NCBI GenBank assembly: GCA_016283575.1 | Contig: JAEEND010000027.1 | Location: forward strand, 2,711-66,710 | Origin: Lachnospiraceae bacterium | GTDB lineage: Bacteria; Bacillota; Clostridia; Lachnospirales; Lachnospiraceae | Direction of reading: 5' to 3' | DNA length: 64,000 nt | Shown: piece by piece, positions 1 through 20,122 of the stretch | How positions within the stretch are numbered: the stretch's first letter is position 1 | Layout: every line of letters starts with the position of its first letter | Made by a program: the position numbers and the translations under genes | Notes under the pieces: generated by a model | Seen by the model: the letters and a program-made list of their open reading frames with translations, nothing else | Told to the model about the DNA's origin: nothing | Databases searched by the model: none

Positions 1-117
1 TGCACGATTGATCTTATAACCTGATGATAACTTTTCTGTTGATTTGCCCTGACTCTTTGTCGTAAGATTCAACATACGATTGGAGTTCATTGCGGTAAGG
101 TTGTGCTGTACTACCAT
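1..117 (-). CDS. fliC: Flagellin, N-terminal 39 codons only (rest lies beyond the window start)
   Basis: Reverse complement reads MVVQHNLTAMNSNRMLNLTTKSQGKSTEKLSSGYKINRA, the same N-terminus as the eight complete flagellins. GGAGG lies 8 nt upstream of the ATG at 115-117. Confidence 0.85.
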   Translation of the reverse strand, partial: MVVQHNLTAMNSNRMLNLTTKSQGKSTEKLSSGYKINRA

Positions 118-186
118 TTTCTTTTCCTCCACTTTACGTTACTAAATACTAGATATTGTGCCCCGGGATTTTCACCCTCACATAAT

Positions 187-213
187 GTATCGGACGCAGC
201 AAAAAAAACTTTA
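187..213 (-). promoter_or_regulatory. SigD/sigma-28-type promoter of the truncated flagellin
   Basis: Minus strand reads TAAA-N15-TCCGATAC (consensus TAAA-N15-GCCGATAT), about 70 nt upstream of the ATG. Confidence 0.55.
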
Positions 214-222
214 TAGCAAAAT

Positions 223-258
223 AAAAAAACTCTCAAAAAAATTTTTTTGAGAGTTTTT
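223..258 (-). terminator. Rho-independent, probably bidirectional, terminator after flagellin 274-1797
   Basis: Near-perfect palindrome A7-CTCTC-A7 / T7-GAGAG-T5, 16 nt past the stop codon. Confidence 0.75.
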
Positions 259-273
259 AATGCCAATATTCGA

Positions 274-1797
274 TTATCCAAGTAAGCTGAGTACACCCTG
301 GTTACTCTGGTTGGACTGAGCAAGCATTGCCTGTCCTGCCTGAGCTAAGATATTGTTGTTTGAGTACTTAACCATCTCGGTTGCCATATCTGTATCACGA
401 ATAGCGGATTCAGCAGATGTGGTATTTTCAACTACGTTATCAAGGTTGTTGATGGTGTGCTCAAGTCTGTTCTGAACTGCACCGAATCTTGAACGTTGGG
501 TTGATACGGACTGAATTGCCTCCTTAACTGCATCGATACACTTAAGAGCCTTGTCGGCTGTGGTAACATCGGCTGCATTAAATGCTTTAAGAGATTCTGT
601 TCTCCAATCATATGTGTAACCCTTTAATCCAAGAGCTGCACCGCTTAAGTTTCCGAGTTCAAGTTCGATCTGGTTATTCTTTGTAGCGTCAGCGCCTACA
701 TGAAGGCTGAGCTTTGTATTATCTAATGTAATATCGGCACCTTTTCCGAGGTATCCATTCTTTAAACTCCAGCTGCCTGTATAATCTTCAGATACTGCTG
801 CGTGAGGTCCGGCAACGGTATCACCGTCGAATATGGCAAGTTTACCGTTTCCGCCACCGATATTTACGTGGTGGGAGGTACCCATACAATATGCATTTTT
901 GTTACCTGCGGTATATGTTGTGCTGTTAAGCTTAGCATATGCCGAAAGTACTTTATTGGTTACATCTGTTCCGTTATTACATCCGGAGATGCTTACCCAC
1001 ATTGTGGTTCCACTTGAGTCATTGGCAAATGCCTTATAGCCATCGCTGTTAAGTCCGGGTGTATCATCATCTACAAATTTCAAGCTGTAATAATTATCGC
1101 AAAGAGTACATGTAGCTGATATTCCTGTACCCATAAGCTTTTCAACATCAGCCGCGGAATTGATACCTGTCAAATCCAAGAATCCTGCAGCATAGGAGCC
1201 ACCGGCGTTAACGGCTGTACCGTTCTGATCACCGCCGACAATATTTCCCGTACCTACTACGTTAGATAACTGAGTGCCTGTATATACGCCAAATACATGG
1301 TTTTCAAATAAATCTACATTGGTTCCGATAAGTTCTTCGGACAGTGCTCCGAAGAATCCGTCTTTTTCTTTTACATCATAAGAACCATCCAGCAGATATG
1401 TTTCGTTAAACTTGGTAGTTGCCGCTACTCTGTCTATTTCTGACATGATCTGGTCTACTTCGTTCTGGATGTATCCACGATCATCAGAAGAAAGAGTTCC
1501 GTTAGCCGCTTTAACTGCCAACTCGTTCAATCTCTGAAGCATGTCCTGAACTTCGTTTAATGCACCTTCTGCTGTCTGTACCATTGAGATACCATCCTGT
1601 GCATTTGAAGATGCCTGTGTAAGACCACGAATCTGCTTACGCATCTTTTCACTGATTGACAAACCTGCTGCATCATCAGCTGCTCTGTTAATCTTAAATC
1701 CCGAGGATAATTTCTCGGTGGAATCCGCCTGTGACTTAACTGTTAAATTAAGCATGCGGTTTGAATTCATTGCTGTAAGGTTGTGCTGTACTACCAT
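274..1797 (-). CDS. fliC: Flagellin, long class L (507 aa) with Cys/His-containing central insert
   Basis: Flagellin D0/D1 termini (MVVQHNLTAMNSNRML..AADDAAGLSISEKM; ..TQRSRFGAVQNRLEHTINNLDN..AQAGQAMLAQSNQSNQGVLSLLG). Central residues ~135-365 are shared only with the other two long copies. Confidence 0.95.
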   Translation of the reverse strand: MVVQHNLTAMNSNRMLNLTVKSQADSTEKLSSGFKINRAADDAAGLSISEKMRKQIRGLTQASSNAQDGISMVQTAEGALNEVQDMLQRLNELAVKAANGTLSSDDRGYIQNEVDQIMSEIDRVAATTKFNETYLLDGSYDVKEKDGFFGALSEELIGTNVDLFENHVFGVYTGTQLSNVVGTGNIVGGDQNGTAVNAGGSYAAGFLDLTGINSAADVEKLMGTGISATCTLCDNYYSLKFVDDDTPGLNSDGYKAFANDSSGTTMWVSISGCNNGTDVTNKVLSAYAKLNSTTYTAGNKNAYCMGTSHHVNIGGGNGKLAIFDGDTVAGPHAAVSEDYTGSWSLKNGYLGKGADITLDNTKLSLHVGADATKNNQIELELGNLSGAALGLKGYTYDWRTESLKAFNAADVTTADKALKCIDAVKEAIQSVSTQRSRFGAVQNRLEHTINNLDNVVENTTSAESAIRDTDMATEMVKYSNNNILAQAGQAMLAQSNQSNQGVLSLLG

Positions 1798-1831
1798 ATT
1801 ATTCTCCTTTCTTGTCCCGCACTATCACGGG

Positions 1832-1845
1832 TGGAATCCTTTCCA
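1832..1845 (-). promoter_or_regulatory. Leader hairpin with GGA in the loop (CsrA-site-like)
   Basis: Minus strand tggaAAGGAttcca: 5-bp stem with AGGA loop. A second GGA lies in the SD (AAAGGAG). Confidence 0.45.
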
Positions 1846-1865
1846 TAACGTGCCCCTCACTATAT

Positions 1866-1892
1866 ATATCGTCAATGCTTTATCATTCTAAA
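1866..1892 (-). promoter_or_regulatory. SigD-like promoter (good -10, weak -35)
   Basis: Minus strand TTTA-N15-GACGATAT. The -10 matches 7/8 but the -35 is TTTA instead of TAAA. Confidence 0.4.
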
Positions 1893-2001
1893 GTAATAAG
1901 CCCGTTAATTATTCGTTAATAATTCATGTTTCTTTTGCACAACAAAAAAGCACAGATCCTTCGATCCGTGCTTTTTGTATATTCAAGTCTGTATTATCAC
2001 T

Positions 2002-2119
2002 ATAATAAACCGCTTCGCGTTTTATTATCGGTCGATAGAATAATCCTCAGGCTTATTCTATCTCTACAATAGACCTTCGGTCTATTGTCATCGCTTGAAT
2101 AATCCCTCCGGGATTATTC
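2002..2119. repeat. Four tandem AT-clamped hairpins downstream of flagellin 2119-3705
   Basis: ataataaaccgcTTCgcgttttattat (2002-2028), agaataa..ttattct (2037-2059), CAATAGACC-TTCG-GGTCTATTG (2067-2087), GAATAATCCC-TCC-GGGATTATTC (2097-2119). Confidence 0.8.
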
Positions 2120-3705
2120 TATCTCAGTAAAGAAAGTACACCCTGATTGGACTGGTTAGCCTGTGCAAGCATTGCCTGTCCTGCCTGAGCTAAGATGTTA
2201 TTGTTAGAATATCTAACCATCTCAGTTGCCATATCCGTATCTCTGATTGCAGATTCAGCAGATGTGGTATTTTCAACTACGTTATCAAGGTTCTTAATGG
2301 TGTGCTCAAGTCTGTTCTGAACTGCACCGAATCTTGAACGCTGTGTGGAAACTGCCTGTATCGCATCTTTAACTGCATTGATACAATCAAGGGCTTTTGC
2401 TGCCGTAGTTACATCGGCTGCGTTAAATTCTTTAAGAGATTCTGACTTCCAGTCATATTTAAAGCCCTTAAGTCCTAAAGCAACACCGCTTAAGTTACCG
2501 AGTTCAAGTTCAATCTGGTTATTCTTAGTAGCATCTGCGCCAACATGAAGATTAAGCTTTGTATTTTCCGGAGTTACTTCAGCACCTTTTCCAAGGTAAC
2601 CGTTCTGTAATCCGTAATAGCTCGAATAATCATCCTGTCCGACTTGGTTGGCCCAGGACTTGCTGGTCTTATTATCTGAGTCAAATAATACCAAAGTGCT
2701 TCCGCCACCGCCGATACATACGTGATGCCAGCTGGATCCTGTATCAGAGAGCGTCTGTCCTGCATTTGATGCGCTGCCGACAGATCCCATGTTATAAGCT
2801 GCCTTGGAACCTGCGGTATGGGTTGTTCCATTATAGCGGGCATAGGCGCTTAATACTGTATCTACTACATCCGATCCGTTATTACAGGAGGAAATATCTA
2901 TCCAAAGATTCTGTCCGCCCGCGGAGTTACCAACTACTTTATAGCCGTTAGCATTCAGTCCTAAAGAAGGATCGTCATCAACCAGTTTGATTGAAAAGAA
3001 AGTTTCACAAGCACCACAGGTTGCGGATAATCCGGTTCCTATAAGTCTTTCGACATCGCTCTTTGTGGTAAGTGATGAAAGATCAAAGCTTGTTGCCGCA
3101 AATCCGGCTCTGCTGGATGTTGCCAGATCCGAACCGTTGCTACCATTAACTATGTTATCTCCGACTAATCCTGCCATTTCGGAACCTGATTTCCAGTCAA
3201 ATACGTGATTGGTAAATAATGACTCGTTGGTTCCTATAATATCTTCGGACAAAGCACCGTAGAAACCATCTTTTTCTTCTACGGAATATTTACCGTTAAG
3301 AAGATAGGTTTCATTAAATTTGGTGGTTGCCGCTACTCTGTCAATTTCTGACATTATCTGATCTACTTCGTTCTGAATGTAACCGCGGTCATCTGAAGAA
3401 AGAGTTCCGTTTGCTGCTTTAACAGCCAGCTCGTTCATTCTCTGAAGCATATCCTGCACTTCATTTAAAGCGCCTTCAGCTGTCTGCACCATGGAAATAC
3501 CGTCCTGCGCGTTTGCGGAAGCCTGTGTAAGACCTCTTATCTGCTTACGCATCTTTTCACTTATGGATAATCCTGCTGCGTCGTCAGCTGCTCTGTTTAT
3601 CTTATATCCCGATGATAATTTTTCGGTGGAACCTGCCTGACCCTTAACCGTTATGTTAAGCATACGGTTCGAATTTATGGCTGTGAGATTATGTTGTACT
3701 ACCAT
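2119..3705 (-). CDS. fliC: Flagellin, long class L (528 aa)
   Basis: Flagellin termini plus the same central insert motifs as 274-1797 (SATCGACETFFSIKLVDDD, ISSCNNGSDV, WHHVCIGGG). Confidence 0.95.
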   Translation of the reverse strand: MVVQHNLTAINSNRMLNITVKGQAGSTEKLSSGYKINRAADDAAGLSISEKMRKQIRGLTQASANAQDGISMVQTAEGALNEVQDMLQRMNELAVKAANGTLSSDDRGYIQNEVDQIMSEIDRVAATTKFNETYLLNGKYSVEEKDGFYGALSEDIIGTNESLFTNHVFDWKSGSEMAGLVGDNIVNGSNGSDLATSSRAGFAATSFDLSSLTTKSDVERLIGTGLSATCGACETFFSIKLVDDDPSLGLNANGYKVVGNSAGGQNLWIDISSCNNGSDVVDTVLSAYARYNGTTHTAGSKAAYNMGSVGSASNAGQTLSDTGSSWHHVCIGGGGSTLVLFDSDNKTSKSWANQVGQDDYSSYYGLQNGYLGKGAEVTPENTKLNLHVGADATKNNQIELELGNLSGVALGLKGFKYDWKSESLKEFNAADVTTAAKALDCINAVKDAIQAVSTQRSRFGAVQNRLEHTIKNLDNVVENTTSAESAIRDTDMATEMVRYSNNNILAQAGQAMLAQANQSNQGVLSLLR

Positions 3706-3741
3706 AACTTACTCCTTTCTCTCCCGGCTTAATGACCGGGT

Positions 3742-3755
3742 GGGCTTCCTTGCCC
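3742..3755 (-). promoter_or_regulatory. Leader hairpin with GGA in the loop (CsrA-site-like)
   Basis: Minus strand gggcAAGGAAgccc, about 40 nt upstream of the ATG. The SD is AAAGGAG. Confidence 0.45.
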
Positions 3756-3820
3756 TTGGTAGTATGGGTACTGATTACCCATCTTAGGTTTCACCCCTCA
3801 TTCCCTTTTTTATTTCAAGC

Positions 3821-3859
3821 CCTATCCGGTCAGCCATGCAGCAGGCTGGCCAGGATAGG
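3821..3859 (-). other. GC-rich imperfect stem-loop after flagellin 3885-5042
   Basis: cctatccggtcagcc / ggctggccaggatagg arms. No U-tract follows on the coding strand. Confidence 0.4.
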
Positions 3860-3884
3860 AAGAGAAATAGTAGTACCGTATTTA

Positions 3885-5042
3885 TTATCTGAGTAATGCA
3901 AGAACACCCTGGTTAGACTGGTTAGCCTGTGCAAGCATTGCCTGTCCTGCCTGACTGAGGATATTGTTGTTAGAATATCTAACCATCTCAGTTGCCATAT
4001 CTGTATCACGGATAGCAGATTCAGCGGATGTTGTATTTTCAACTACGTTGTCAAGGTTGTTGATCGTATGATCAAGTCTGTTCTGTACAGCACCGAGTGC
4101 AGATCTCTGTGTAGAAATCTTCTGGATTGCTGTCTTGATGGTTTCGATTGCTGTAAGAGCATTCTTATCATCAGTACCATCAACTTTAAGACCGTCAACA
4201 CCGATTCCCTTAGCACTCATAGCGTTTAAAGAAACACTAATCTGGTTGTTGGAAGTAGCATCAGCACCTACATGAAGCTTAAGTTCAAGAGCACCTACGC
4301 CTGTACCTGAAGCTTCCATCACAGCCAATTTAGCAGTTGTAGAAGCATCATTGTCGCTTGCGCCAAGTACTGTTGTTCCGGCTGTTACTGCTAATGCCGT
4401 TGCACTTAAAGTATAACCATCTGTTGCGTTTCCTGTTTTGGTATAGAGTTTTCCTACTGCTTCTGCTGTAGCCTTACCGTTCTGATCAATGTAATTGGAA
4501 AGTGCGTTTTCAGAAATCCAGTTACCATTTGCATCATAGTAAACTTTGGTAGGATCCTTAATACCGCCATCTTTAGCAAAAGCGGCTGCAGTATATGAAA
4601 ACTGCTTAACCTTAGTTGCAGAAGAATCACCCTTAAGTAAGTAAGTTTCGTTGAACTTTGTGGTTTCAGCGACACGGTCGATTTCTGTTACTAACTGATC
4701 GATTTCGTTCTGGATATAAGAACGGTCATCTGTTGAGTTTGTACCGTTAGCGGATTTAACTGCAAGTTCGTTCATTCTCTGAAGCATGTCCTGAACTTCG
4801 TTTAATGCGCCTTCAGCTGTCTGTACTGCTGAAATACCATCCTGTGCGTTAGCGGAAGCCTGTGTAAGACCTCTGATCTGTTTACGCATCTTTTCGGAAA
4901 TTGATAATCCTGCTGCATCATCAGCTGCTCTGTTAATCTTAAAACCGGATGAAAGTTTCTCAGTTGACTTTGCCTGTGTCTTTGTATTGACATTAAGCAT
5001 ACGGTTTGAGTTCATCGCTGTTAAGTTGTGTTGTACTACCAT
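3885..5042 (-). CDS. fliC: Flagellin, short class S (385 aa, Cys-free)
   Basis: Flagellin termini (..RSALGAVQNRLDHTINNLDN..QSNQGVLALLR). Variable centre contains YDANGNWISENAL. Confidence 0.95.
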   Translation of the reverse strand: MVVQHNLTAMNSNRMLNVNTKTQAKSTEKLSSGFKINRAADDAAGLSISEKMRKQIRGLTQASANAQDGISAVQTAEGALNEVQDMLQRMNELAVKSANGTNSTDDRSYIQNEIDQLVTEIDRVAETTKFNETYLLKGDSSATKVKQFSYTAAAFAKDGGIKDPTKVYYDANGNWISENALSNYIDQNGKATAEAVGKLYTKTGNATDGYTLSATALAVTAGTTVLGASDNDASTTAKLAVMEASGTGVGALELKLHVGADATSNNQISVSLNAMSAKGIGVDGLKVDGTDDKNALTAIETIKTAIQKISTQRSALGAVQNRLDHTINNLDNVVENTTSAESAIRDTDMATEMVRYSNNNILSQAGQAMLAQANQSNQGVLALLR

Positions 5043-5075
5043 AATTGTTTCCTCCTTGAATGGTTGTAATCTTTA

Positions 5076-5093
5076 CGCGATATCCTTATCGCG
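5076..5093 (-). promoter_or_regulatory. Leader hairpin with GGA in the loop (CsrA-site-like)
   Basis: Minus strand cgcgatAAGGATatcgcg. The SD is CAAGGAGGAA, about 25 nt downstream. Confidence 0.5.
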
Positions 5094-5101
5094 ATTTTTG
5101 T

Positions 5102-5132
5102 GGAACCGCCACCGGGTTTCGGTGGCAGTTCC
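5102..5132 (-). other. GC-rich stem-loop between flagellin genes
   Basis: ggaaccgccaccgg-gttt-c(c)ggtggc(a)gttcc. On the coding strand it is followed by ACAAAAAT, not a U-tract. Confidence 0.5.
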
Positions 5133-5158
5133 TATTGTTTTTGGTTAAGTGACTAATC

Positions 5159-6316
5159 TTATCTCAGAAGAGAAAGAACGCCCTGGTTAGACTGGTTAGC
5201 CTGTGCAAGCATTGCCTGTCCTGCCTGACTGAGGATGTTATTGTTAGAATATCTAACCATCTCAGTTGCCATATCTGTATCACGGATAGCAGATTCAGCG
5301 GATGTAGTATTTTCAACTACGTTGTCAAGGTTGTTGATTGTGTGATCAAGTCTGTTCTGTACAGCACCGAGTGCAGATCTCTGAGTAGAAATCTTCTGGA
5401 TTGCTGCTTTAATAGTTTCGATTGCTGATAATGCATTAGTATCATCAGCGCCATCAACCTTAAGACCGTCAACACCAATACCTTCAGCTGACATTGAAGA
5501 AATGCTAACTGAAATCTGGTTATTTGATGTAGCATCAGCACCAACGTGAAGCTTTAATGTAAGAGCTCCAAGTCCGGAAGCTGTACCTTCTTTCTCGATT
5601 GCTGCCTTAACGATTGTTTCAGCGCCTGCTGCAGGTGAAGCCTTAGCAATATCTGTACCAACCGCAATTTCAGTTCTGGTTCCGGCTTTGAATGCTGCCT
5701 CATCAGCGTAACCGTACATAACCTTTGTGGTCTTTCCTGTTGCTGTGTCAACGTAATCGTTTAAAGCATTTTCAGAAATCCAGTTACCGTTTGCATCATA
5801 AAGAACCTTTGCCTTACCTGCATCTGTAAGTTCTACTGCACCGTTTGCTGTAAGGTTTCCGCTCTTATATGTAACCTGGTTAACCTTTGTAGCACTCTTG
5901 TCACCCTTAAGTAAGTAGGTTTCGTTGAACTTTGTGGTTTCAGCTACACGATCTATTTCTGTTACTAACTGATCGATTTCGTTCTGGATGTAAGTACGGT
6001 CGTCAGTAGAGTTGGTGCCGTTAGCGGACTTAACTGCAAGTTCGTTCATTCTCTGAAGCATGTCCTGAACTTCGTTTAATGCGCCTTCAGCTGTCTGCAC
6101 TGCTGAGATACCATCCTGAGCATTTGCGGAAGCCTGTGTAAGACCTCTGATCTGCTTACGCATCTTTTCACTGATGGATAAGCCTGCTGCATCATCCGCT
6201 GCACGGTTAATCTTATAACCGGATGAAAGTTTCTCAGTTGACTTTGCCTGTGTCTTTGTGTTGACATTCAGCATACGATTTGAGTTCATCGCTGTTAAGT
6301 TGTGTTGTACTACCAT
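5159..6316 (-). CDS. fliC: Flagellin, short class S (385 aa, Cys-free)
   Basis: Flagellin termini. The centre differs from 3885-5042 but keeps LYDANGNWISENAL. Confidence 0.95.
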   Translation of the reverse strand: MVVQHNLTAMNSNRMLNVNTKTQAKSTEKLSSGYKINRAADDAAGLSISEKMRKQIRGLTQASANAQDGISAVQTAEGALNEVQDMLQRMNELAVKSANGTNSTDDRTYIQNEIDQLVTEIDRVAETTKFNETYLLKGDKSATKVNQVTYKSGNLTANGAVELTDAGKAKVLYDANGNWISENALNDYVDTATGKTTKVMYGYADEAAFKAGTRTEIAVGTDIAKASPAAGAETIVKAAIEKEGTASGLGALTLKLHVGADATSNNQISVSISSMSAEGIGVDGLKVDGADDTNALSAIETIKAAIQKISTQRSALGAVQNRLDHTINNLDNVVENTTSAESAIRDTDMATEMVRYSNNNILSQAGQAMLAQANQSNQGVLSLLR

Positions 6317-6350
6317 AATTATTTCCTCCTTGAATGGTTGTGTAAAAAAT

Positions 6351-6368
6351 CACGATATCCATATCGTG
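6351..6368 (-). promoter_or_regulatory. Leader hairpin with GGA in the loop (CsrA-site-like)
   Basis: Minus strand cacgataTGGAtatcgtg: 7-bp stem with UGGA loop. The SD is CAAGGAGGAA. Confidence 0.5.
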
Positions 6369-6419
6369 GCTAAGGGGCTAAAACCCTAAATAACTAATAG
6401 ATTAAAGCTTGGTTACCGG

Positions 6420-6438
6420 GGCGCTGCTAAGCAGCGCC
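6420..6438 (-). other. GC-rich stem-loop between flagellin genes
   Basis: GGCGCTGC-taa-GCAGCGCC, a perfect 8-bp stem with no U-tract on the coding strand. Confidence 0.5.
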
Positions 6439-6456
6439 GCCGATAGTTGGTCATGC

Positions 6457-7740
6457 TTATCCAAGTAAGCTGAGTACACCCTGATTTGACTGGTTAGCCT
6501 GTGCAAGCATTGCCTGTCCTGCCTGAGCTAAGATGTTGTTGTTAGAATATCTAACCATCTCAGTTGCCATATCAGTATCACGGATACTGGATTCAGCAGA
6601 TGTAGTATTTTCAACTACGTTATCAAGGTTGTTGATCGTGTGATCAAGTCTGTTCTGTACAGCACCGAGTGCGGATCTCTGTGTGGAAATCTTCTGGATT
6701 GCTGCTTTGATGGTTTCGATTGCATCAAGTGCGTTGCTGTCATCAGCGCCGTCAACCTTAAGGCCGTTAACGCCGATACCTGTTGCGCTCATAGCTGCGA
6801 GATCAACAGAAATCTGGTTGTTAGATGTAGCATCAGCACCTACGTGAAGCTTAAGAGTAAGATCGTTTGGAATTGATCTTGTTCCTACGAAATTAGCCTT
6901 AACCATTGTAGTAGGATTGAATGCGATCTTTCCTTCGGTATCAAGGAATACTGTACCTGCCTTGCCATCCTGGAAAGTTCCGTCGTTCTTAAAAATAGAA
7001 TCAAGCGCGTTGCTGGAGTATCTGTTGCCGTTTGCATCATAGAGGTTTGCTCTTGTTGCTTCGGTAAATTCAACAGTCTTACTTCCTGCAGTAATCTTTG
7101 CAGTATCACCTGCCTGGAAAGTACCGGCATAGGTTCCAGCTCCGATTACTGTAGCAGCATCTCCACCTGCGTGGTTTGCAGTTGCATTGAACCAGTTCGT
7201 ACCATCAAATACAAATGTTGCGTCAGCTGCAGCTGCATTTGTAAGAGTTCCGGAAAGAGCTGTTGTACTCTTTGCATATGTTGTAGCTGTACTATAAGCT
7301 GCAACTGTCTGAGTTCCGCTCTTATCTCCTTTAAGAAGATAAGTTTCGTTGAACTTTGTGGTTTCTGCTACTCTGTCGATTTCGGACACGAGCTGATCGA
7401 TTTCGTTCTGGATGTAAGTACGGTCATCAGTAGAGTTTGTACCGTTAGCTGCTTTAACTGCAAGTTCGTTCATTCTCTGAAGCATGTCCTGAACTTCGTT
7501 TAATGCGCCTTCAGCTGTCTGTACTGCTGAAATACCATCCTGTGCGTTAGCGGAAGCCTGTGTAAGACCTCTGATCTGCTTACGCATCTTTTCGGAAATT
7601 GATAATCCTGCTGCATCATCTGCTGCACGGTTGATCTTAAATCCGGATGAAAGTTTCTCAGTTGACTTTGCCTGTGTCTTTGTATTGACATTAAGCATAC
7701 GGTTTGAGTTCATCGCCGTTAAGTTGTGTTGTACTACCAT
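6457..7740 (-). CDS. fliC: Flagellin, short class S (427 aa, Cys-free)
   Basis: Flagellin termini. The centre contains TFVFDGTNWF and LYDANGNRYSSNAL. Confidence 0.95.
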   Translation of the reverse strand: MVVQHNLTAMNSNRMLNVNTKTQAKSTEKLSSGFKINRAADDAAGLSISEKMRKQIRGLTQASANAQDGISAVQTAEGALNEVQDMLQRMNELAVKAANGTNSTDDRTYIQNEIDQLVSEIDRVAETTKFNETYLLKGDKSGTQTVAAYSTATTYAKSTTALSGTLTNAAAADATFVFDGTNWFNATANHAGGDAATVIGAGTYAGTFQAGDTAKITAGSKTVEFTEATRANLYDANGNRYSSNALDSIFKNDGTFQDGKAGTVFLDTEGKIAFNPTTMVKANFVGTRSIPNDLTLKLHVGADATSNNQISVDLAAMSATGIGVNGLKVDGADDSNALDAIETIKAAIQKISTQRSALGAVQNRLDHTINNLDNVVENTTSAESSIRDTDMATEMVRYSNNNILAQAGQAMLAQANQSNQGVLSLLG

Positions 7741-7774
7741 AATTGTTTCCTCCTTGAAATTGTCATATGGTTTT

Positions 7775-7792
7775 CACGATATCCTTATCGCG
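7775..7792 (-). promoter_or_regulatory. Leader hairpin with GGA in the loop (CsrA-site-like)
   Basis: Minus strand cgcgatAAGGATatcgtg. The SD is CAAGGAGGAA. Confidence 0.5.
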
Positions 7793-7813
7793 TTGTTACT
7801 GTGATGGTAATAC

Positions 7814-7837
7814 CCGCTACCGGTTTCCCGGTAGCGG
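7814..7837 (-). other. GC-rich stem-loop between flagellin genes
   Basis: CCGCTACCGG-tttc-CCGGTAGCGG, a perfect 10-bp stem with no U-tract on the coding strand. Confidence 0.5.
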
Positions 7838-7898
7838 AGCATTCAAATCATTTGATTACCACGGAGATAATTCTCCAAGTTCCTTACCTACCTGTTGA

Positions 7899-8972
7899 TT
7901 AGCCAAGTAAGCTGAGAACACCCTGGTTAGACTGGTTAGCCTGTGCAAGCATTGCCTGTCCTGCCTGACTGAGGATGTTATTGTTAGAATATCTAACCAT
8001 CTCAGTTGCCATATCTGTATCACGGATAGCAGATTCAGCGGATGTTGTGTTTTCAACTACGTTGTCAAGGTTGTTGATTGTGTGATCAAGTCTGTTCTGT
8101 ACAGCACCGAGTGCGGATCTCTGAGTAGAAATCTTCTGGATTGCTGCCTTGATGGTTTCGATTGCATTGAGTGCATTTGTGTCATCAGCACCATCTACCT
8201 TAAGGCCGTTAACTCCAATTCCCTTAGCGCTCATTGCGTTAAGATCAACTGAAATCTGGTTGTTGGATGTTGCGTCTGCACCAACATGAAGCTTAAGAGT
8301 AAGAGGTCCGCTGTAAGCGTTAGCGTTATCTGCTGTAATCTTTGCATAAGCTGCATTAGCTGCGTATTCAGTGCCTGCTGCATTATACAGTTTCTTTCCG
8401 TCTGCATATGTTGTACCATTCTTAAAATAGTCAGCAAGTGCATTCTCAGAAATCTTGTTGCCGTTTGCATCATATAATGCATTATCCTTGGTGGCTTCGT
8501 AATCAGCAGGATCAACTGCAGCTGCATACTTGAAAGGTGTTACAGTAGTGCTCTTGTCACCCTTAAGTAAGTAGGTTTCGTTGAACTTTGTGGTTTCTGC
8601 TACTCTGTCAATTTCAGATACAAGCTGATCGATTTCGTTCTGGATGTAAGTACGGTCATCTGTTGAGTTTGTACCGTTAGCGGACTTAACTGCAAGTTCG
8701 TTCATTCTCTGAAGCATGTCCTGAACTTCGTTTAATGCGCCTTCAGCTGTCTGTACTGCTGAGATACCATCCTGTGCATTTGCAGAAGCCTGTGTAAGAC
8801 CTCTGATCTGCTTACGCATCTTTTCGGAAATTGATAATCCTGCTGCATCATCTGCTGCACGGTTGATCTTAAATCCTGAAGAAAGCTTCTCAGTTGACTT
8901 TGCCTGTGTCTTTGTGTTGACATTGAGCATACGATTTGAGTTCATCGCTGTTAAATTGTGTTGTACTACCAT
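7899..8972 (-). CDS. fliC: Flagellin, short class S (357 aa, Cys-free)
   Basis: Flagellin termini. It has the shortest variable centre, with LYDANGNKISENAL. Confidence 0.95.
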   Translation of the reverse strand: MVVQHNLTAMNSNRMLNVNTKTQAKSTEKLSSGFKINRAADDAAGLSISEKMRKQIRGLTQASANAQDGISAVQTAEGALNEVQDMLQRMNELAVKSANGTNSTDDRTYIQNEIDQLVSEIDRVAETTKFNETYLLKGDKSTTVTPFKYAAAVDPADYEATKDNALYDANGNKISENALADYFKNGTTYADGKKLYNAAGTEYAANAAYAKITADNANAYSGPLTLKLHVGADATSNNQISVDLNAMSAKGIGVNGLKVDGADDTNALNAIETIKAAIQKISTQRSALGAVQNRLDHTINNLDNVVENTTSAESAIRDTDMATEMVRYSNNNILSQAGQAMLAQANQSNQGVLSLLG

Positions 8973-9007
8973 ATTTTTTTCCTCCTTGATGATAGATAGT
9001 TAGTTAC

Positions 9008-9023
9008 CAGGCTTCCTTGCCTG
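9008..9023 (-). promoter_or_regulatory. Leader hairpin with GGA in the loop (CsrA-site-like)
   Basis: Minus strand caggcAAGGAAgcctg. The SD is CAAGGAGGAA. Confidence 0.45.
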
Positions 9024-9030
9024 TCGTTGG

Positions 9031-9113
9031 ATAATTAACCTGGCGGTTAATTATCATGTATAATCAACCTTTCGGTGGATTATCGTGTATGATCAACCCT
9101 TTCGGGAGATTAT
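9031..9113. repeat. Three tandem AT-clamped hairpins
   Basis: ATAATTAACC-tggc-GGTTAATTAT (9031-9054), ataatcaacc-tttc-ggtggattat (9060-9083), atgatcaaccc-tttc-gggagattat (9089-9113). Confidence 0.8.
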
Positions 9114-9296
9114 CCTAAGTCATATTTCAGAAACAAAAATAAACGAAAATCTTAATCTTCGCCTCGGATAGTAGTTTTTACTTAAATTGGGGGTGGGAAA
9201 TAAAGTCACGAATAAGAAATGCGATGCATTCCTCGTGTAAAAATAATCTAGAAACATCCTCCATGATGTAAAAACAACCTCCGTGTTGTTATATCG

Positions 9297-9325
9297 ATTA
9301 TACTATTTAATATTCTTTTTGTACA
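9297..9325 (-). promoter_or_regulatory. Possible sigma-A-type promoter inside the 523-bp flagellin spacer
   Basis: Minus strand TGTACA-N17-TATAAT (-35 at 9320-9325, -10 at 9297-9302). Confidence 0.35.
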
Positions 9326-9378
9326 GTACTCCTAATTGTGTGCACCGTTGATAAATGTACCAAATGTTGGGATTTTCC

Positions 9379-9400
9379 CGGTTCAGGTTTCCCTGAACCG
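9379..9400 (-). other. GC-rich stem-loop after flagellin 9496-10779
   Basis: CGGTTCAGG-tttc-CCTGAACCG, a perfect 9-bp stem with no U-tract on the coding strand. Confidence 0.5.
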
Positions 9401-9495
9401 AGTTTATTATCCCACATGATGATTAATATCTTATTAAAATTAAAAGAAATTAATCTTGAATAACCCTTTAAGAATTATTCATATACAATCAGCTA

Positions 9496-10779
9496 TTAAC
9501 CAAGTAAACTAAGTACACCCTGATTGGTCTGGTTAGCCTGTGCGAGCATTGACTGTCCTGCCTGAGCAAGGATGTTATTGTTCGAATATCTAACCATTTC
9601 AGTTGCCATATCTGTATCACGGATACCGGATTCAGCAGATGTGGTATTTTCAACTACGTTATCAAGGTTGTTGATTGTGTGGTCCAGTCTGTTCTGAACT
9701 GCACCGAGTGCAGATCTCTGAGTGGAAATCTTCTGGATTGCTGACTTGATGGTCTCAATCGCATAACGAGCATTTGTATCATCAGCGCCGTCTACTTTAA
9801 GATCTTTAACGCCGATACTCTTAGCGCTCATAGATTCCAAAGTAACAGAAATCTGGTTGTTTGATGTTGCGTCAGCACCTACATGAAGTTTAAGGGTTAA
9901 TGCATCGGTTAAATCCTTGGTTGCTGTAGGTAAATAGTTAGCGAGGTTAGCAGCACGTAACTGTGTGCCCTTTTCGTCGATATAAACCTTAGCATTAGTC
10001 TTAAGAGAAACTACTCCTGCATCACTTACATCGAAGTATTTATCAAGACCGTTATCAGGGATTCTGTTTCCGTTTGAGTCGTATAAAGCTGCGCCATATT
10101 CGAATGTAGCTTCATCAAAATGAGCCTTCTTGGATGCTGCTTCGTATACGAGTCTGTCGCCGGCCTTAGCATTAGCGATATCTGCTACACCATAAGCGGT
10201 GAAGTTTGCTACAGCTGCAGAATCTGTGCTTCCTTCTTCAAACCAAGCTGTTCCGTCAAATACGAAAGTCTTGTCTGCGGTTGCTGTTCCTGCTGTAAAT
10301 GTAGCTGTTGCTGCAGCATCGGTAACTGCCTTAGCTTTTAAGGAATACTTTGCGTTAGCATCTGTTCCCTTAAGTAAGTAAGTTTCGTTGAACTTTGTTG
10401 TCTCAGCTACACGATCAATTTCAGAAACAAGCTGATCGATTTCGTTCTGGATATAGGTACGGTCATCAGTAGAGTTGGTGCCGTTAGCTGCTTTAACTGC
10501 AAGTTCGTTCATTCTCTGAAGCATGTCCTGAACTTCGTTTAATGCACCTTCAGCTGTCTGTACTGCTGAAATACCATCCTGTGCGTTAGCGGAAGCCTGT
10601 GTAAGACCTCTGATCTGCTTACGCATCTTTTCACTGATTGATAAGCCTGCTGCATCATCTGCCGCACGGTTAATCTTGTAACCGGATGAAAGCTTTTCTG
10701 TTGACTTTGTCTGAGACTTAACCGTAAGGTTTAACATACGGTTAGAATTCATTGCTGTTAAGTTGTGTTGTACTACCAT
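9496..10779 (-). CDS. fliC: Flagellin, short class S (427 aa from the MVVQ start, Cys-free)
   Basis: The ORF track starts at 10794 (MEEKIM...). That upstream ATGGAGGA is actually the SD for the conserved MVVQHNL start at 10779. Confidence 0.93.
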   Translation of the reverse strand: MVVQHNLTAMNSNRMLNLTVKSQTKSTEKLSSGYKINRAADDAAGLSISEKMRKQIRGLTQASANAQDGISAVQTAEGALNEVQDMLQRMNELAVKAANGTNSTDDRTYIQNEIDQLVSEIDRVAETTKFNETYLLKGTDANAKYSLKAKAVTDAAATATFTAGTATADKTFVFDGTAWFEEGSTDSAAVANFTAYGVADIANAKAGDRLVYEAASKKAHFDEATFEYGAALYDSNGNRIPDNGLDKYFDVSDAGVVSLKTNAKVYIDEKGTQLRAANLANYLPTATKDLTDALTLKLHVGADATSNNQISVTLESMSAKSIGVKDLKVDGADDTNARYAIETIKSAIQKISTQRSALGAVQNRLDHTINNLDNVVENTTSAESGIRDTDMATEMVRYSNNNILAQAGQSMLAQANQTNQGVLSLLG

Positions 10780-10808
10780 TATTTTTTCCTCCATGAAAAA
10801 TTGTTCTA

Positions 10809-10824
10809 CACGATTCCATTCGTG
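10809..10824 (-). promoter_or_regulatory. Leader hairpin with GGA in the loop (CsrA-site-like)
   Basis: Minus strand cacgaATGGAAtcgtg. The SD is CATGGAGGAA. Confidence 0.45.
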
Positions 10825-10850
10825 CGTTAAAATTAGCTAATTGTATTTGT

Positions 10851-10927
10851 ATAATAATTTTTTGGCTACGCCAAAAAAGTTATTATCGTGTATAATAATG
10901 TTCCGGCTAAGCTGAAACAGTTATTAT
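10851..10927. repeat. Two tandem AT-clamped hairpins
   Basis: ataataattttttgg-ctacg-ccaaaaaagttattat (10851-10886) and ataataatgtt..aacagttattat (10892-10927). A further GC-rich hairpin lies around 10940-10980. Confidence 0.7.
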
Positions 10928-10993
10928 CGATGTTAATGTCTATAGCCACCCGGCCCTTAAAGGGCCGCGGTGATTATAGAATTGTGTTTTTAA

Positions 10994-12565
10994 TTATCCG
11001 AGTAAACTGAGTACTCCCTGGTTAGCCTGGTTGGACTGAGCGAGCATTGCCTGTCCTGCCTGAGCTAAGATGTTGTTATTGGAATAAGATACCATTTCCT
11101 TAGCCATATCTGTATCACGGATTGCAGATTCAGCTGCTGTTGTGTTTTCAACTACGTTATCAAGGTTGTTGATGGTATGTTCAAGTCTGTTCTGAACTGC
11201 ACCGAATCTTGAACGCTGTGTTGATACGGACTGAATAGCTGACTTAACTGCATCTATGCAGAGAAGAGCTTTTTCAGCTGTAGTAACGTCTGCAAGATTT
11301 CTTTCTGCTACGTTTTCTGTTCTCCAGTCATACTTGTAACTCTTTAATCCTAATGCAAATGTAGAAAGGTTACCAAGTTCAAGTTCGATCTGGTTGTTGC
11401 TTGTTGCATCTGCGCCAACGTGAAGCTTCATCTTTTCGTTAACTTCTTTAGCTTCAACGCCCTTGCCTACGTAACCGTTAGCAAAACCGCCGGAACCCAT
11501 ATATCCTTCTGCCTGAACACCGGCACCGCTACCACCATCTGTATCAAAAAGAACAAGTTTACCTGTCTGATCGTTACCGCCGATTGCTACGTGATGCCAG
11601 CTAGTGTTTGTATCGTTAAGGATCGCTCCGTCTGTTCTGCCGGTTCCACCCATGTTGTAAGAAGCTGCTCCACCTGAATAAGTGGTTCCGTTATATAATG
11701 CATATGCCTTCATAACCGCATTAACAACGTCTTTACCATTATTACATCCGGATATATCAATCCAAAGAGTATCACCACCCTGAGCATTACCGTGAGCTTT
11801 GTAGCCGTTAGCGTTTAATCCAAGATCTGCGCCGTCATCTACAAACTTAATGCTGTAGAATGTGGAGCAAGCCATACATGTTGCGGAAATACCGCAGCCA
11901 TATAATTCTTCGACGCCTGCCTTAGTTGTTACATTTGATAAATCAAGGAATCCTGCTGCATAAGTCCCTGAACTGAGAGTAATGTCTGAACCGTTATCAC
12001 CATTAACAGTAGTCGCACCTGCTACGGCTGTAACTTCCGCCTGACTATGTGTACCTAGTGAATGGTTTGTAAGAAGGTCTGCGTTGGTTCCGACAATAGT
12101 TTCGTCCAACTGTCCCTGGAAGCCGCCATCTCCTTCTTCAACTTCATAAGTACCGTTTAACAAATATGTTTCGTTGAACTTTGTAGTATGAGCTACACGA
12201 TCGATTTCTGTCATGAGCTGATCTACTTCGTTCTGGATGTATCCGCGGTCATCAGAACTTAATGTGCCGTTAGCTGCCTTAACTGCAAGTTCGTTCATTC
12301 TCTGAAGCATGTCCTGAACTTCGTTTAATGCACCTTCAGCTGTCTGTACCATTGAGATACCGTCCTGTGCGTTGGCAGATGCCTGTGTAAGACCACGAAT
12401 CTGCTTACGCATCTTTTCACTGATTGATAAGCCTGCTGCATCGTCGGCTGCACGGTTAATGCGATAACCGGACGAAAGCTTTTCTGTTGAACCCGCCTGT
12501 GACTTAACTGTTAAGTTAAGCATTCGATTGGAGTTCATTGCTGTTAGGTTGTGTTGTACTACCAT
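10994..12565 (-). CDS. fliC: Flagellin, long class L (523 aa)
   Basis: Flagellin termini plus class-L insert motifs (SATCMACSTFYSIKFVDD, ISGCNNGKDV, WHHVAIGG, LLCIDAVK). Confidence 0.95.
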   Translation of the reverse strand: MVVQHNLTAMNSNRMLNLTVKSQAGSTEKLSSGYRINRAADDAAGLSISEKMRKQIRGLTQASANAQDGISMVQTAEGALNEVQDMLQRMNELAVKAANGTLSSDDRGYIQNEVDQLMTEIDRVAHTTKFNETYLLNGTYEVEEGDGGFQGQLDETIVGTNADLLTNHSLGTHSQAEVTAVAGATTVNGDNGSDITLSSGTYAAGFLDLSNVTTKAGVEELYGCGISATCMACSTFYSIKFVDDGADLGLNANGYKAHGNAQGGDTLWIDISGCNNGKDVVNAVMKAYALYNGTTYSGGAASYNMGGTGRTDGAILNDTNTSWHHVAIGGNDQTGKLVLFDTDGGSGAGVQAEGYMGSGGFANGYVGKGVEAKEVNEKMKLHVGADATSNNQIELELGNLSTFALGLKSYKYDWRTENVAERNLADVTTAEKALLCIDAVKSAIQSVSTQRSRFGAVQNRLEHTINNLDNVVENTTAAESAIRDTDMAKEMVSYSNNNILAQAGQAMLAQSNQANQGVLSLLG

Positions 12566-12594: not shown

Positions 12595-12610
12595 TGAGCC
12601 TCCTTGCTCA
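12595..12610 (-). promoter_or_regulatory. Leader hairpin with GGA in the loop (CsrA-site-like)
   Basis: Minus strand tgagcAAGGAGgctca. A second GGA hairpin (agcc..AGGAtggct) lies at 12622-12638. The SD is CAAGGAGGTA. Confidence 0.45.
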
Positions 12611-12657: not shown

Positions 12658-12684
12658 ATATCGGCTTAAACTCCGCGTACTTTA
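12658..12684 (-). promoter_or_regulatory. Canonical SigD/sigma-28 promoter of flagellin 10994-12565
   Basis: Minus strand TAAA-gtacgcggagtttaa-GCCGATAT, an exact match to the TAAA-N15-GCCGATAT consensus. Confidence 0.8.
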
Positions 12685-13565: not shown

Positions 13566-13579
13566 AATCTAATCTCCTT

Positions 13580-15421: not shown

Positions 15422-15485
15422 AAAAAACCTCCTTTTAACGACAACTAAAGGGTAGACTATCCCCTACCCACAGATTCTTGGTTAC

Positions 15486-15896: not shown

Positions 15897-15950
15897 TTTA
15901 ACTCTCCTTTCGCGGCGTCCGTGCCGCACGGTTTACCTTTTCTAAGTACT

Positions 15951-16011: not shown

Positions 16012-16035
16012 ACATCTGCTTAACCAAGCAGATGT
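16012..16035 (-). terminator. Stem-loop overlapping the csrA stop, possible terminator
   Basis: ACATCTGCTT-aacc-AAGCAGATGT, a perfect 10-bp stem followed on the coding strand by UUUAAU (a short U-run). Confidence 0.5.
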
Positions 16036-18164: not shown

Positions 18165-18193
18165 TGTTTACCTTTCCTCACTGAACATGAAGG

Positions 18194-20095: not shown

Positions 20096-20122
20096 AAGAT
20101 AACCTCCTCTCCGGCATCTTTA

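What the first reader, a model, noticed from the sequence alone, without database searches (positions are those of the whole stretch)
1..12565. Tandem array of at least nine flagellin paralogues
Eight complete flagellin ORFs lie head-to-tail on the minus strand: 274-1797, 2119-3705, 3885-5042, 5159-6316, 6457-7740, 7899-8972, 9496-10779 and 10994-12565. A ninth (1-117) is cut by the window edge. The array sits directly downstream of flaG-fliD-fliS. All copies share near-identical D0/D1 termini but have different central regions of roughly 110 to 280 aa. Most flagellated bacteria carry one to about six flagellin genes, so nine or more contiguous copies is at the extreme end. The array may continue to the left of the window. 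It is open whether the paralogues are co-assembled, laid down segmentally along the filament, or used alternately.
Basis: partly seen in the sequence, partly recalled or inferred. Interest (0 to 1): 0.65.

Follow-up and report, generated by a model that had tools for sequence, protein, structure and literature searches.

The report
Eleven-gene hypervariable flagellin array, rumen Lachnospiraceae
A rumen Lachnospiraceae bacterium carries a real head-to-tail row of at least eleven intact flagellin genes whose surface-exposed middle parts differ between copies and between strains; this is a large example of a known kind of gene expansion, not a new kind of system.

Summary
Eight complete flagellin ORFs lie at exactly the stated coordinates, and a ninth is cut at the window edge. 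Another assembly with identical gene order and spacer lengths continues the row. It adds a 464-aa gene, a gene of at least 378 aa, and a last 427-aa flagellin before a glycosyltransferase, so the total is at least 11.

All copies are intact. Their D0/D1 termini are under strong purifying selection (dN/dS about 0.1) but have diverged at synonymous sites, so they are old functional paralogues rather than recent duplicates.

Eight of nine leaders carry a GGA-loop hairpin plus a GGAGG ribosome-binding site. fliW and csrA lie just upstream. This fits FliW-CsrA translational control of each copy. A canonical sigma-28 promoter precedes only the first and the ninth gene.

A strain with 97.4% identical flanks has positional homologues whose termini are 89-99% identical but whose centres are only 22-38% identical, so the central domains are replaced like cassettes.

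The array is large but not unique. Another Lachnospiraceae locus has at least 9 copies at the same position. Published counts are 11 (Eubacterium cellulosolvens), 9 (Epulopiscium) and 15 (Magnetococcus).

Which copies are expressed could not be resolved.

Side finding: three copies carry an unannotated outer domain with invariant Cys-x2-Cys, His and Asp residues and no Pfam or PDB match.

The parts
1..117 (-). 5' end (39 codons) of the ninth flagellin gene (g9). The full gene is 464 aa in related assemblies, with a third kind of central domain.
   Evidence: The 39 aa are identical to the N-termini of P0063 and P0067. A 464-aa gene follows the 507-aa gene after a 156-nt spacer in another assembly.
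187..213 (-). Sigma-28-type promoter-like site upstream of g9 (TAAA-N15-TCCGATAC).
   Evidence: Own scan.
217..258 (-). Intrinsic terminator after g1 (15-bp stem followed by a U tract).
274..1797 (-). g1: flagellin, 507 aa, type A (Cys-x2-Cys outer domain).
   Evidence: AF2 model plus Foldseek matches to flagellar filament structures.
1832..1845 (-). g1 leader hairpin with AGGA loop (CsrA-site-like), 34 nt before the ATG.
1943..1976 (-). Intrinsic terminator after g2 (stem followed by a U tract).
2119..3705 (-). g2: flagellin, 528 aa, type A.
3742..3755 (-). g2 leader hairpin GGGC-AAGGAA-GCCC.
3885..5042 (-). g3: flagellin, 385 aa, type B.
   Evidence: A 98.6% identical orthologue is present in conspecific locus L080.
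5076..5093 (-). g3 leader hairpin CGCGAUA-AGGA-UAUCGCG.
5159..6316 (-). g4: flagellin, 385 aa, type B.
6351..6368 (-). g4 leader hairpin CACGAUA-UGGA-UAUCGUG.
6457..7740 (-). g5: flagellin, 427 aa, type B.
7775..7792 (-). g5 leader hairpin CGCGAUA-AGGA-UAUCGUG.
7899..8972 (-). g6: flagellin, 357 aa, type B (the shortest centre).
9008..9023 (-). g6 leader hairpin CAGGC-AAGGAA-GCCUG.
8973..9495 (-). Long (523-nt) ORF-free spacer between g7 and g6. It holds a hairpin without a U tract (9377-9402), a sigma-A-like TGTACA-17-TATAAT site (9297-9325) and AU-rich tandem hairpins (9029-9084). It is about 90% conserved in a conspecific strain.
9496..10779 (-). g7: flagellin, 427 aa, type B (outlier of that class).
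10808..10825 (-). g7 leader hairpin with AUGGAA loop.
10994..12565 (-). g8: first flagellin of the array, 523 aa, type A.
12595..12610 (-). g8 leader hairpin UGAGC-AAGGAG-GCUCA.
12658..12684 (-). Perfect sigma-28 consensus promoter (TAAA-N15-GCCGATAT) at the head of the array.
12739..13188 (-). 149-aa FlgN-like protein in the FliT position (putative export chaperone).
   Evidence: Weak Pfam FlgN match. Conserved next to fliS in related loci.
13188..15929 (-). fliS (13188-13565), fliD (13580-15421) and flaG (15486-15929).
16020..16699 (-). csrA (16020-16238) and fliW (16238-16699): the flagellin translation-control pair.
   Evidence: Pfam CsrA and FliW on the orthologues in L079.
16725..22444 (-). 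flgL (16725-18164), two tandem flgK paralogues (18194-20095 and 20123-21904) and flgN (21926-22444).

Best explanation
SHOWN
- The window holds the proximal 8 genes, and the start of a ninth, of a tandem array of at least 11 flagellin genes. The array lies at the end of the late flagellar cluster flgK-flgL-fliW-csrA-flaG-fliD-fliS-fliT-like.
- The host is an unnamed rumen Lachnospiraceae.
- Every copy in the window is a full-length flagellin with its own ribosome-binding site.
- The polymerisation termini are under strong purifying selection but are saturated or nearly so at synonymous sites. The copies are therefore old, individually maintained, assembly-competent subunits. They are not pseudogenes, silent cassettes or recent duplicates.
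- The copies form at least three classes. Type A is g1, g2 and g8, with a Cys-x2-Cys outer domain and a 13-aa insert in the C-terminal D1 arm. Type B is g3-g7. The 464-aa g9 has a third kind of centre.
- In a conspecific strain the flanks, spacers and termini are conserved while the central domains of positional homologues are replaced. Whole genes and a 1-kb PDDEXK_2 nuclease gene come and go.

INFERRED
1. Translation of each paralogue is gated by the FliW-CsrA-flagellin partner switch, as for Bacillus subtilis hag. Eight of nine leaders have a GGA-loop hairpin about 30 nt upstream of a GGAGG Shine-Dalgarno sequence, and fliW-csrA are encoded next door.
2. Transcription starts at sigma-28 promoters before g8 and g9. 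A sigma-A-like site before g6 may also be used. Transcription probably reads through the U-less, GC-rich hairpins between g6 and g2, with true terminators only after g2 and g1.
3. Several paralogues are made together and co-polymerise into a filament with a mosaic surface.
4. Recombination within the conserved termini swaps outer-domain cassettes between strains. The likely drivers are diversifying selection on the exposed surface (flagellotropic phages, grazers, host antibody) and possibly functional specialisation of outer domains.
For: - Gene identity and context.
- Extension to at least 11 genes: assembly GCA_016648615.1 carries an identical g1 protein and the same spacer lengths (116, 179, 321 and 156 nt). 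It continues with a 464-aa gene and a gene of at least 378 aa. Its other contig starts with a 55-aa gene fragment (Pfam not looked up; probably a flagellin C-terminus), followed by a 427-aa flagellin and then GT/VanZ/GLF.
- Purifying selection: dN/dS is 0.07 (N-terminus) and 0.12 (C-terminus), with dS 0.2-2.0. Synonymous-site identity is 53-89%.
- Classes: alignment A1 and the Cys/His pattern.
- Leader hairpins: RNA folds. Eight of nine flagellin leaders have the hairpin against 4 of 36 other genes in the window. In related loci 93 of 122 flagellin leaders have it against 7.8% of shuffles, and the stem sequences differ.
- Promoters and terminators.
- Within-species variation: flanks are 97.4% identical over 9.7 kb. 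Positional homologues have 89-99% identical termini and 22-38% identical centres. The spacer is conserved and a PDDEXK_2 indel is present.
- Same locus architecture with 4 to at least 9 tandem flagellins in other Lachnospiraceae.
- Co-expression precedent: Fla1-Fla4 of Lachnospiraceae A4 were all detected by LC-MS (bioRxiv 10.1101/2025.07.18.665615).
- RNA contigs span two U-less spacers (3608-3929 and 6306-6504) in a sheep rumen metatranscriptome.
Against: - No direct expression or proteomic data exist for this organism.
- In the metatranscriptomes the unique centres of g3-g6 have zero coverage at 97% identity. The low-depth contigs for g1, g2, g7 and g8 have the same depth as the neighbouring chaperone gene, so they may be contaminating DNA or come from other strains.
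- Seven of the nine genes lack a recognisable sigma-28 promoter, so some could be poorly transcribed.
- The g9 leader lacks the GGA hairpin.
- The count of 11 assumes that the two contigs of the other assembly belong to the same genome as the window and adjoin.
- CsrA binding, read-through and recombination in the termini are inferred from sequence only.
Confidence: 0.6

Rival explanations
1. Alternating or condition-dependent use. Only one copy or a small subset is expressed at a time (antigenic or phase variation, or environmental switching). The array would then be a wardrobe of alternative filament surfaces rather than a co-assembled mixture.
For: - The promoter types are heterogeneous: sigma-28 sites before g8 and g9, a sigma-A-like site before g6, and none recognisable before the others.
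- Separate terminators follow g2 and g1.
- The outer domains are very different from each other.
- In Ca. Epulopiscium the nine flagellin genes are unequally expressed (PMC10756260).
- Metatranscriptome coverage of the unique centres is patchy.
Against: - No invertible segment is present: no convincing inverted repeats flank any promoter.
- No recombinase gene lies inside the array in the window.
- No slippage-prone tracts were noticed when reading the gene starts; no dedicated scan was run.
- All copies keep an RBS, and eight of nine keep a CsrA-type leader.
- Most multi-flagellin bacteria co-assemble their flagellins (PMC6299084).
Confidence: 0.25
2. Ordered, segmental filament. The paralogues are laid down in spatial order along the filament, as for FlaA/FlaB in Shewanella or the flagellins of Caulobacter. 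Promoter class and position in the array would set the timing.
For: - Two promoter classes occur, and gene order is conserved at both ends of the array in conspecific strains.
- Precedent: PMC6299084.
Against: - Nothing in the sequence speaks to spatial order.
- The middle of the array is reshuffled between strains, which argues against a finely tuned order.
Confidence: 0.1
3. Reservoir of silent cassettes. Most copies are unexpressed donors that recombine into one expression site, as in the pilE/pilS type of antigenic variation.
For: - The conserved termini could serve as recombination substrates.
- Central domains are swapped between strains.
Against: - Every copy has an intact start codon, a full D0 N-terminus, its own Shine-Dalgarno sequence and (8 of 9) a leader hairpin.
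- The termini have dN/dS of about 0.1 with high dS. Each copy is therefore selected as a protein, and the copies are not being homogenised.
Confidence: 0.03
4. Assembly artefact. The apparent array would be a mis-assembled pile-up of flagellin genes from several strains or species of a metagenome.
For: - Related assemblies break inside the conserved termini.
- Contigs of several runs join non-adjacent copies (joints table).
Against: - Two independent assemblies share the same order and exact spacer lengths for five consecutive genes.
- The unique centres and the flank have uniform DNA depth of 10-18 in run X1.
- The spacers are unique sequences, and the same spacers recur in conspecific strains.
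Confidence: 0.02

Closest known systems
[quoted passage not shown] 2013, PMC3720852; bioRxiv 10.1101/2025.07.18.665615)
   Same: - The locus architecture is the same: two tandem flgK genes, then flgL, fliW, csrA, flaG, fliD and fliS, followed by flagellin gene(s).
- The N-terminus is of the MVVQHN type.
- A sigma-28 promoter precedes some of the flagellin genes.
- Several flagellins per genome is the norm.
- Eubacterium cellulosolvens, also from the rumen, has 11.
   Different: - Here at least 11 copies sit in one uninterrupted tandem row. The 163 Clostridia genomes of that survey average about 3 per genome.
- The homologous locus in 34 metagenome relatives has 0-2 flagellins.
- Within-species replacement of central domains is documented here.
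Ca. Epulopiscium viviparus flagellin cluster (PMC10756260)
   Same: - It is also a Lachnospiraceae.
- It has nine flagellin genes, seven of them adjacent in one operon.
- Their expression is unequal.
   Different: - The array here is longer.
[quoted passage not shown]
- No expression data exist here.
Magnetococcus MC-1 (up to 15 flagellins) and the multi-flagellin filaments of Caulobacter, Vibrio and Shewanella (PMC6299084)
   Same: - There are many structural flagellin paralogues.
- Co-assembly into one filament is the usual outcome.
   Different: - Those are Proteobacteria with different regulation and no FliW-CsrA leader logic.
- Their paralogues mostly have similar or no outer domains, whereas here the outer domains are unrelated to each other.
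Bacillus subtilis Hag-FliW-CsrA partner switch (own knowledge: Yakhnin 2007; Mukherjee 2011)
   Same: - fliW and csrA are adjacent in the late flagellar cluster.
- The flagellin leader has a GGA-loop hairpin (like BS1) and a GGA in the Shine-Dalgarno sequence (like BS2).
   Different: - One regulator pair would serve at least 11 flagellin mRNAs instead of one.
- Binding was not tested.
Flagellinolysin and other functionalised flagellin outer domains (PMC5595980)
   Same: A non-canonical, probably metal-binding domain is inserted in the hypervariable region of an otherwise normal flagellin (type A copies).
   Different: - There is no HExxH motif.
- The NCBIfam flagellinolysin model matches only the termini and scores far below its cut-off.
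- The conserved residues are Cys-x2-Cys, His and Asp.
- No activity is implied.

Membership tests
Bacterial flagellin (FliC/Hag) | N-terminal helical D0/D1 region (Pfam PF00669). | tested here: met
   All 8 complete ORFs match with E 5e-41 to 2e-43 over 137 of 139 profile positions. The 39-aa fragment is identical to the start of two full flagellins.
Bacterial flagellin (FliC/Hag) | C-terminal helical region (Pfam PF00700). | tested here: met
   All 8 ORFs match with E 8e-26 to 7e-28 over the full 86 positions.
Bacterial flagellin (FliC/Hag) | Flagellin fold. | tested here: met
   The AF2 model of g1 gives Foldseek probability 1.0 to many cryo-EM flagellar filaments, including that of Roseburia hominis. 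The match rests on D0/D1 only.
Bacterial flagellin (FliC/Hag) | Polymerises into the filament. | not testable with these tools
   Indirect support only: the termini have dN/dS of about 0.1.
Sigma-28 (SigD/FliA) late flagellar gene | TAAA-N15/16-CCGATA promoter upstream. | tested here: inconclusive
   Present before g8 (perfect match) and g9. Absent before g1-g7, even with the relaxed Butyrivibrio consensus.
FliW-CsrA-flagellin partner switch | fliW and csrA are encoded together in the late flagellar cluster. | tested here: met
   fliW is at 16238-16699 (Pfam FliW). The 72-aa csrA is at 16020-16238. The orthologue in L079 carries Pfam CsrA.
FliW-CsrA-flagellin partner switch | The flagellin leader has a GGA in a hairpin loop and a second GGA in the Shine-Dalgarno sequence. 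| tested here: met
   Found in 8 of 9 leaders (not g9), 28-36 nt before the ATG, with differing stems. In related loci 76% of 122 leaders have it against 7.8% of shuffles.
FliW-CsrA-flagellin partner switch | CsrA binds the leader and FliW binds the flagellin. | not testable with these tools
   Needs EMSA or pull-down experiments.
Invertase-type flagellar phase variation (Salmonella hin/fljBA type) | An invertible promoter segment flanked by inverted repeats, with a recombinase. | tested here: not met
   Only chance-level imperfect inverted repeats and the terminators were found in 1-13200. No recombinase ORF lies in the array.
Silent-cassette antigenic variation (pilE/pilS type) | Donor copies are truncated and lack promoter and RBS. 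| tested here: not met
   All copies are full-length with ATG and Shine-Dalgarno sequence, and 8 of 9 have the leader hairpin. They are under purifying selection.
Flagellinolysin (enzymatic flagellin) | An HExxH metallopeptidase domain in the central region. | tested here: not met
   NF033876 scores 42-52 bits against a cut-off of 205, on flagellin regions outside the peptidase core only. I saw no HExxH motif when reading the central sequences.

The most novel reading that the evidence does not exclude
The array may be a strain-variable toolbox of filament surface functions rather than mere redundancy.

- The type A copies (g1, g2, g8) carry an unannotated outer domain of about 200 aa. Its core of about 100 aa is shared by some 50 flagellin clusters at 50% identity, and by one FlgL-like protein.
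- In that domain Asp, Gly, Cys-x2-Cys and His are 100% conserved and a second Asp is 93% conserved.
- The domain has no Pfam, PDB-sequence or PDB-fold match.
- It may be a metal-binding, possibly adhesive or catalytic, module of a new fold displayed thousands of times per filament.
- Cassette exchange in the conserved termini would let strains re-equip their flagella.
Probability: 0.25. Interest if true: 0.65.

Novelty: new member of a known kind. Interest (0 to 1): 0.4.

Why it matters
Why half of all flagellated bacteria keep several flagellins is still largely unanswered. Lachnospiraceae flagellins are also major antigens and TLR5 ligands in gut ecosystems.

This locus offers a compact natural experiment:
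- There are at least 11 intact paralogues in one row, with unrelated outer domains.
- One FliW-CsrA pair presumably serves all of them.
- Conspecific strains have swapped central domains while keeping spacers and termini.

The locus would be a good system for three questions. How is the stoichiometry of many flagellins set? Are mosaic filaments a defence against flagellotropic phages? What does the Cys-x2-Cys/His/Asp outer domain do?

It does not change current concepts. Arrays of comparable size are already reported.

Tried and rejected
1. Extending the contig directly.
- The other assembly's contigs could be listed but their DNA was not retrievable.
- The one genome-contig scan did not return the window's own species at high identity.
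- A second protein search seeded with the gene that follows the 464-aa flagellin found no further protein on the 71,472-bp source contig. It did lead to P0031 and so to the distal end of the array.

2. Expression.
- Only Logan contigs of community metatranscriptomes were available.
- The conserved termini are swamped by other taxa, and the unique centres are absent or at DNA-like depth.
- No conclusion was possible.

3. Recent gene conversion as the cause of the similar termini. Rejected, because dS between copies is 0.2-2.0.

4. Invertible-promoter phase variation. No inverted repeats were found.

5. Rfam. No known RNA family lies in the array; the only hit is a tRNA at 39734-39804.

6. Identity of the type A centre. 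Nothing significant came from Pfam, NCBIfam, PDB sequence search or Foldseek against the PDB. The best Foldseek hit has E 0.49 and TM at most 0.24. The xylanase hits are noise.

7. Sigma-70-type promoter scan. It found fewer hits than the shuffled expectation, so it is uninformative apart from one 10-of-12 site before g6.

8. Organism name. It was not resolved. One conspecific MAG is labelled 'Ruminococcus sp.' in NCBI. The flagellin termini and the locus architecture place it with Acetatifactor-like Lachnospiraceae.

Full report
**Observation**

The ORF scan finds eight minus-strand ORFs at exactly the coordinates given: 274-1797, 2119-3705, 3885-5042, 5159-6316, 6457-7740, 7899-8972, 9496-10779 (alternative ATG at 10794) and 10994-12565. 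I call them g1 to g8 in that order, so g8 is the first gene of the array in the direction of transcription.
- Each has full-length Pfam Flagellin_N and Flagellin_C matches.
- Bases 1-117 encode 39 residues that align with the other N-termini. They are identical to the start of two 464-aa flagellins, P0063 and P0067.
- Upstream on the same strand lie flgN, two flgK paralogues, flgL, fliW, a 72-aa csrA, flaG, fliD, fliS and a 149-aa FlgN-like gene in the FliT position.

**Extent of the array**

The source contig is 71,472 bp and occurs in NCBI and JGI/IMG. Matching runs are sheep and bovine gut metagenomes.

Assembly GCA_016648615.1 has an 8,843-bp contig that encodes an identical g1 protein.
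- Its genes are 318 aa (cut), 385, 528, 507, 464 and at least 378 aa (cut).
- Its spacers are 116, 179, 321 and 156 nt, exactly those of the window.
- Both ends of that contig break inside genes, as expected for repeat-induced breaks.

The same assembly has an 11,724-bp contig.
- It starts with a 55-aa gene fragment, probably the C-terminus of a flagellin.
- It continues with a 427-aa flagellin (P0031).
- Then come a glycosyltransferase on the other strand, VanZ, UDP-galactopyranose mutase, a FliD_C-like protein and YfhO, followed by rpmG-secE-nusG-rplKAJ.

The array therefore has at least 11 genes. It has exactly 11 if the two contigs adjoin.

**Anatomy of the copies**

The alignment shows three classes.
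- Type A (g1, g2, g8; 507-528 aa) has a centre of about 250-290 aa with conserved Cys and His residues. It also has a 13-aa insert in the C-terminal D1 arm.
- Type B (g3-g7; 357-427 aa) is Cys-free.
- The 464-aa g9 has a third kind of centre.

The termini are alike as proteins but not as DNA.
- DNA identity is 77-94%, and synonymous third positions are 53-89% identical.
- Nei-Gojobori estimates give a median dN/dS of 0.07 for the first 137 codons and 0.12 for the last 86 codons.
- dS is 0.2-0.5 within g3-g6 and 0.6-2 for the other pairs.

The copies are therefore old and individually maintained under purifying selection. Recent conversion has not homogenised them.

**Regulatory signals**
- A perfect sigma-28 consensus (TAAA-N15-GCCGATAT) precedes g8, and a near-consensus site precedes g9.
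- None precedes g1-g7, even with the relaxed Butyrivibrio consensus from PMC3720852.
- Canonical terminators with U tracts occur only after g2 and g1.
- Between g8 and g2 the spacers carry GC-rich hairpins without U tracts.
- A sigma-A-like TGTACA-17-TATAAT site lies in the 523-nt spacer before g6.

Eight of nine leaders have a short hairpin whose loop contains GGA, 28-36 nt before the ATG, and the Shine-Dalgarno sequence is GGAGG.
- The stems differ in sequence between copies.
- Only 4 of 36 other genes in the window have such a hairpin.
- In related loci 93 of 122 flagellin leaders have it, against 7.8% of shuffles.

With fliW-csrA next door, this is the signature of the B. subtilis Hag-type partner switch (own knowledge). 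I infer that it acts on each paralogue.

**Comparison with relatives**

A conspecific assembly (GCA_024712465.1) has flanks 97.4% identical over 9.7 kb, but its flagellins differ.
- Its first three flagellins are 417, 419 and 380 aa. They are only 66-78% identical to any window copy.
- Positional homologues share 89-99% identical termini and an approximately 90% identical 523-nt spacer.
- Their centres are only 22-38% identical.
- g3 and g1, in contrast, have 98-99% identical orthologues in other strains.
- In that strain g2 and g1 are replaced by a PDDEXK_2 nuclease gene. In a third strain the same roughly 1-kb gene sits between g1 and the 464-aa gene, inserted at window position about 229-239.

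The array is thus hypervariable within the species, with cassette-like replacement of outer domains.

Other Lachnospiraceae show the same architecture with tandem arrays of different sizes.
- Locus L003 has at least 9 copies and runs off the locus.
- L005 has at least 7.
- An Acetatifactor species has 6.
- A. muris has 4.
- A. aquisgranensis has at least 5.

In contrast, 34 metagenome loci with the homologous FliT-like gene have only 0-2 flagellins downstream.

Literature counts:
- 45% of flagellated species have more than one flagellin, with up to 15 in Magnetococcus MC-1 (PMC6299084).
- Ca. Epulopiscium has nine, seven of them adjacent (PMC10756260).
- Eubacterium cellulosolvens has 11, and Fla1-4 of Lachnospiraceae A4 were all detected by LC-MS (bioRxiv 10.1101/2025.07.18.665615).

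The array is at the upper end but is not unprecedented.

**Expression**

Only community metatranscriptome contigs were available.
- The conserved termini are covered thousands-fold, because many taxa share them.
- At 97% identity the unique centres of g3-g6 have zero coverage.
- At 95% identity, low-depth contigs (3-20) cover parts of the g1, g2, g7 and g8 centres and two whole spacers.
- Their depth equals that of the adjacent chaperone gene, so DNA carry-over or other strains cannot be excluded.

The expression question stays open.

**Type A outer domain**

The centre has no Pfam, NCBIfam or PDB sequence match.

A profile search of 1.84 billion representatives finds 54 proteins.
- Of 38 hits whose sequences I read, 37 have flagellin-type termini and one is FlgL-like; Pfam confirmed flagellin domains in the ten that were scanned.
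- They share a core of about 100 aa.
- In 40 aligned representatives Asp, Gly, Cys-x2-Cys and His are invariant, and a further Asp is 93% conserved.

The AF2 model of the domain has pLDDT 75.8 and pTM 0.80, from an alignment of only 7 sequences. It has no significant Foldseek match in the PDB. A metal site is a reasonable guess, but it is untested.

**Verdict**

This is a real and large tandem flagellin array of at least 11 genes.
- It is an expanded, strain-variable member of the known Lachnospiraceae multi-flagellin loci.
- It probably yields mixed filaments under FliW-CsrA control.
- It is not a new kind of system.

Noticed in passing
window 724-1383, 2569-3291 and 11444-12151 (minus strand; centres of g1, g2, g8): An unannotated flagellin outer domain. 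Its core (DFS..G.GF..TC-x2-C..YSI.F ... DIS.C..G ... H ... D) recurs in about 54 clusters at 50% identity. Asp, Gly, Cys, Cys and His are 100% conserved. It has no Pfam, PDB sequence or Foldseek match, and may hold a metal site. Cysteines are unusual in flagellins.
   Followed up: partly
P0188 (protein; not in the window): A 695-aa FlgL-like hook-associated protein carries the same Cys-x2-Cys domain. The module has therefore moved between different axial proteins of the flagellin superfamily.
   Followed up: no
L078 2083-2931 and L080 1373-2197; insertion point at window about 229-239: A PDDEXK_2 (Rpn/transposase-like nuclease) gene of about 1 kb lies inside the array of two conspecific strains, at the junction where gene content differs. 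It is absent from the window. It may be involved in array rearrangement.
   Followed up: partly
window 9029-9084 and 10849-10928; looser copies at 9086-9115 and 1990-2118 (minus strand): AU-rich tandem palindromic units (GATAAT-stem-loop-ATTATMC) occur only in flagellin spacers: 4 exact matches against 0.14 expected. In other loci they are found mostly in the conspecific strain. They may be mRNA-stabilising or processing hairpins.
   Followed up: partly
window 18194-20095 and 20123-21904 (minus strand): Two consecutive, non-identical flgK paralogues. This is a known peculiarity of Lachnospiraceae motility loci (PMC3720852).
   Followed up: no
window 22838-24730 (minus strand): A 630-aa ORF directly upstream of the flgM/flgN region has no Pfam or NCBIfam match.
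   Followed up: no
window about 39900-64000: A low-GC region (36-40% against 42-46% elsewhere) is rich in sugar-modification genes, including a DegT-type aminotransferase, a nucleotidyltransferase/mannose-6-P isomerase and DUF6056. It may be a surface-glycan or flagellin-glycosylation island. The distal flank of the array in another assembly also starts with GT, VanZ, GLF and YfhO genes.
   Followed up: no
contig of GCA_016648615.1 and L080 11274-12578: A 434-aa protein with a faint FliD_C match lies just beyond the distal end of the array. It may be a second cap-like protein.
   Followed up: no
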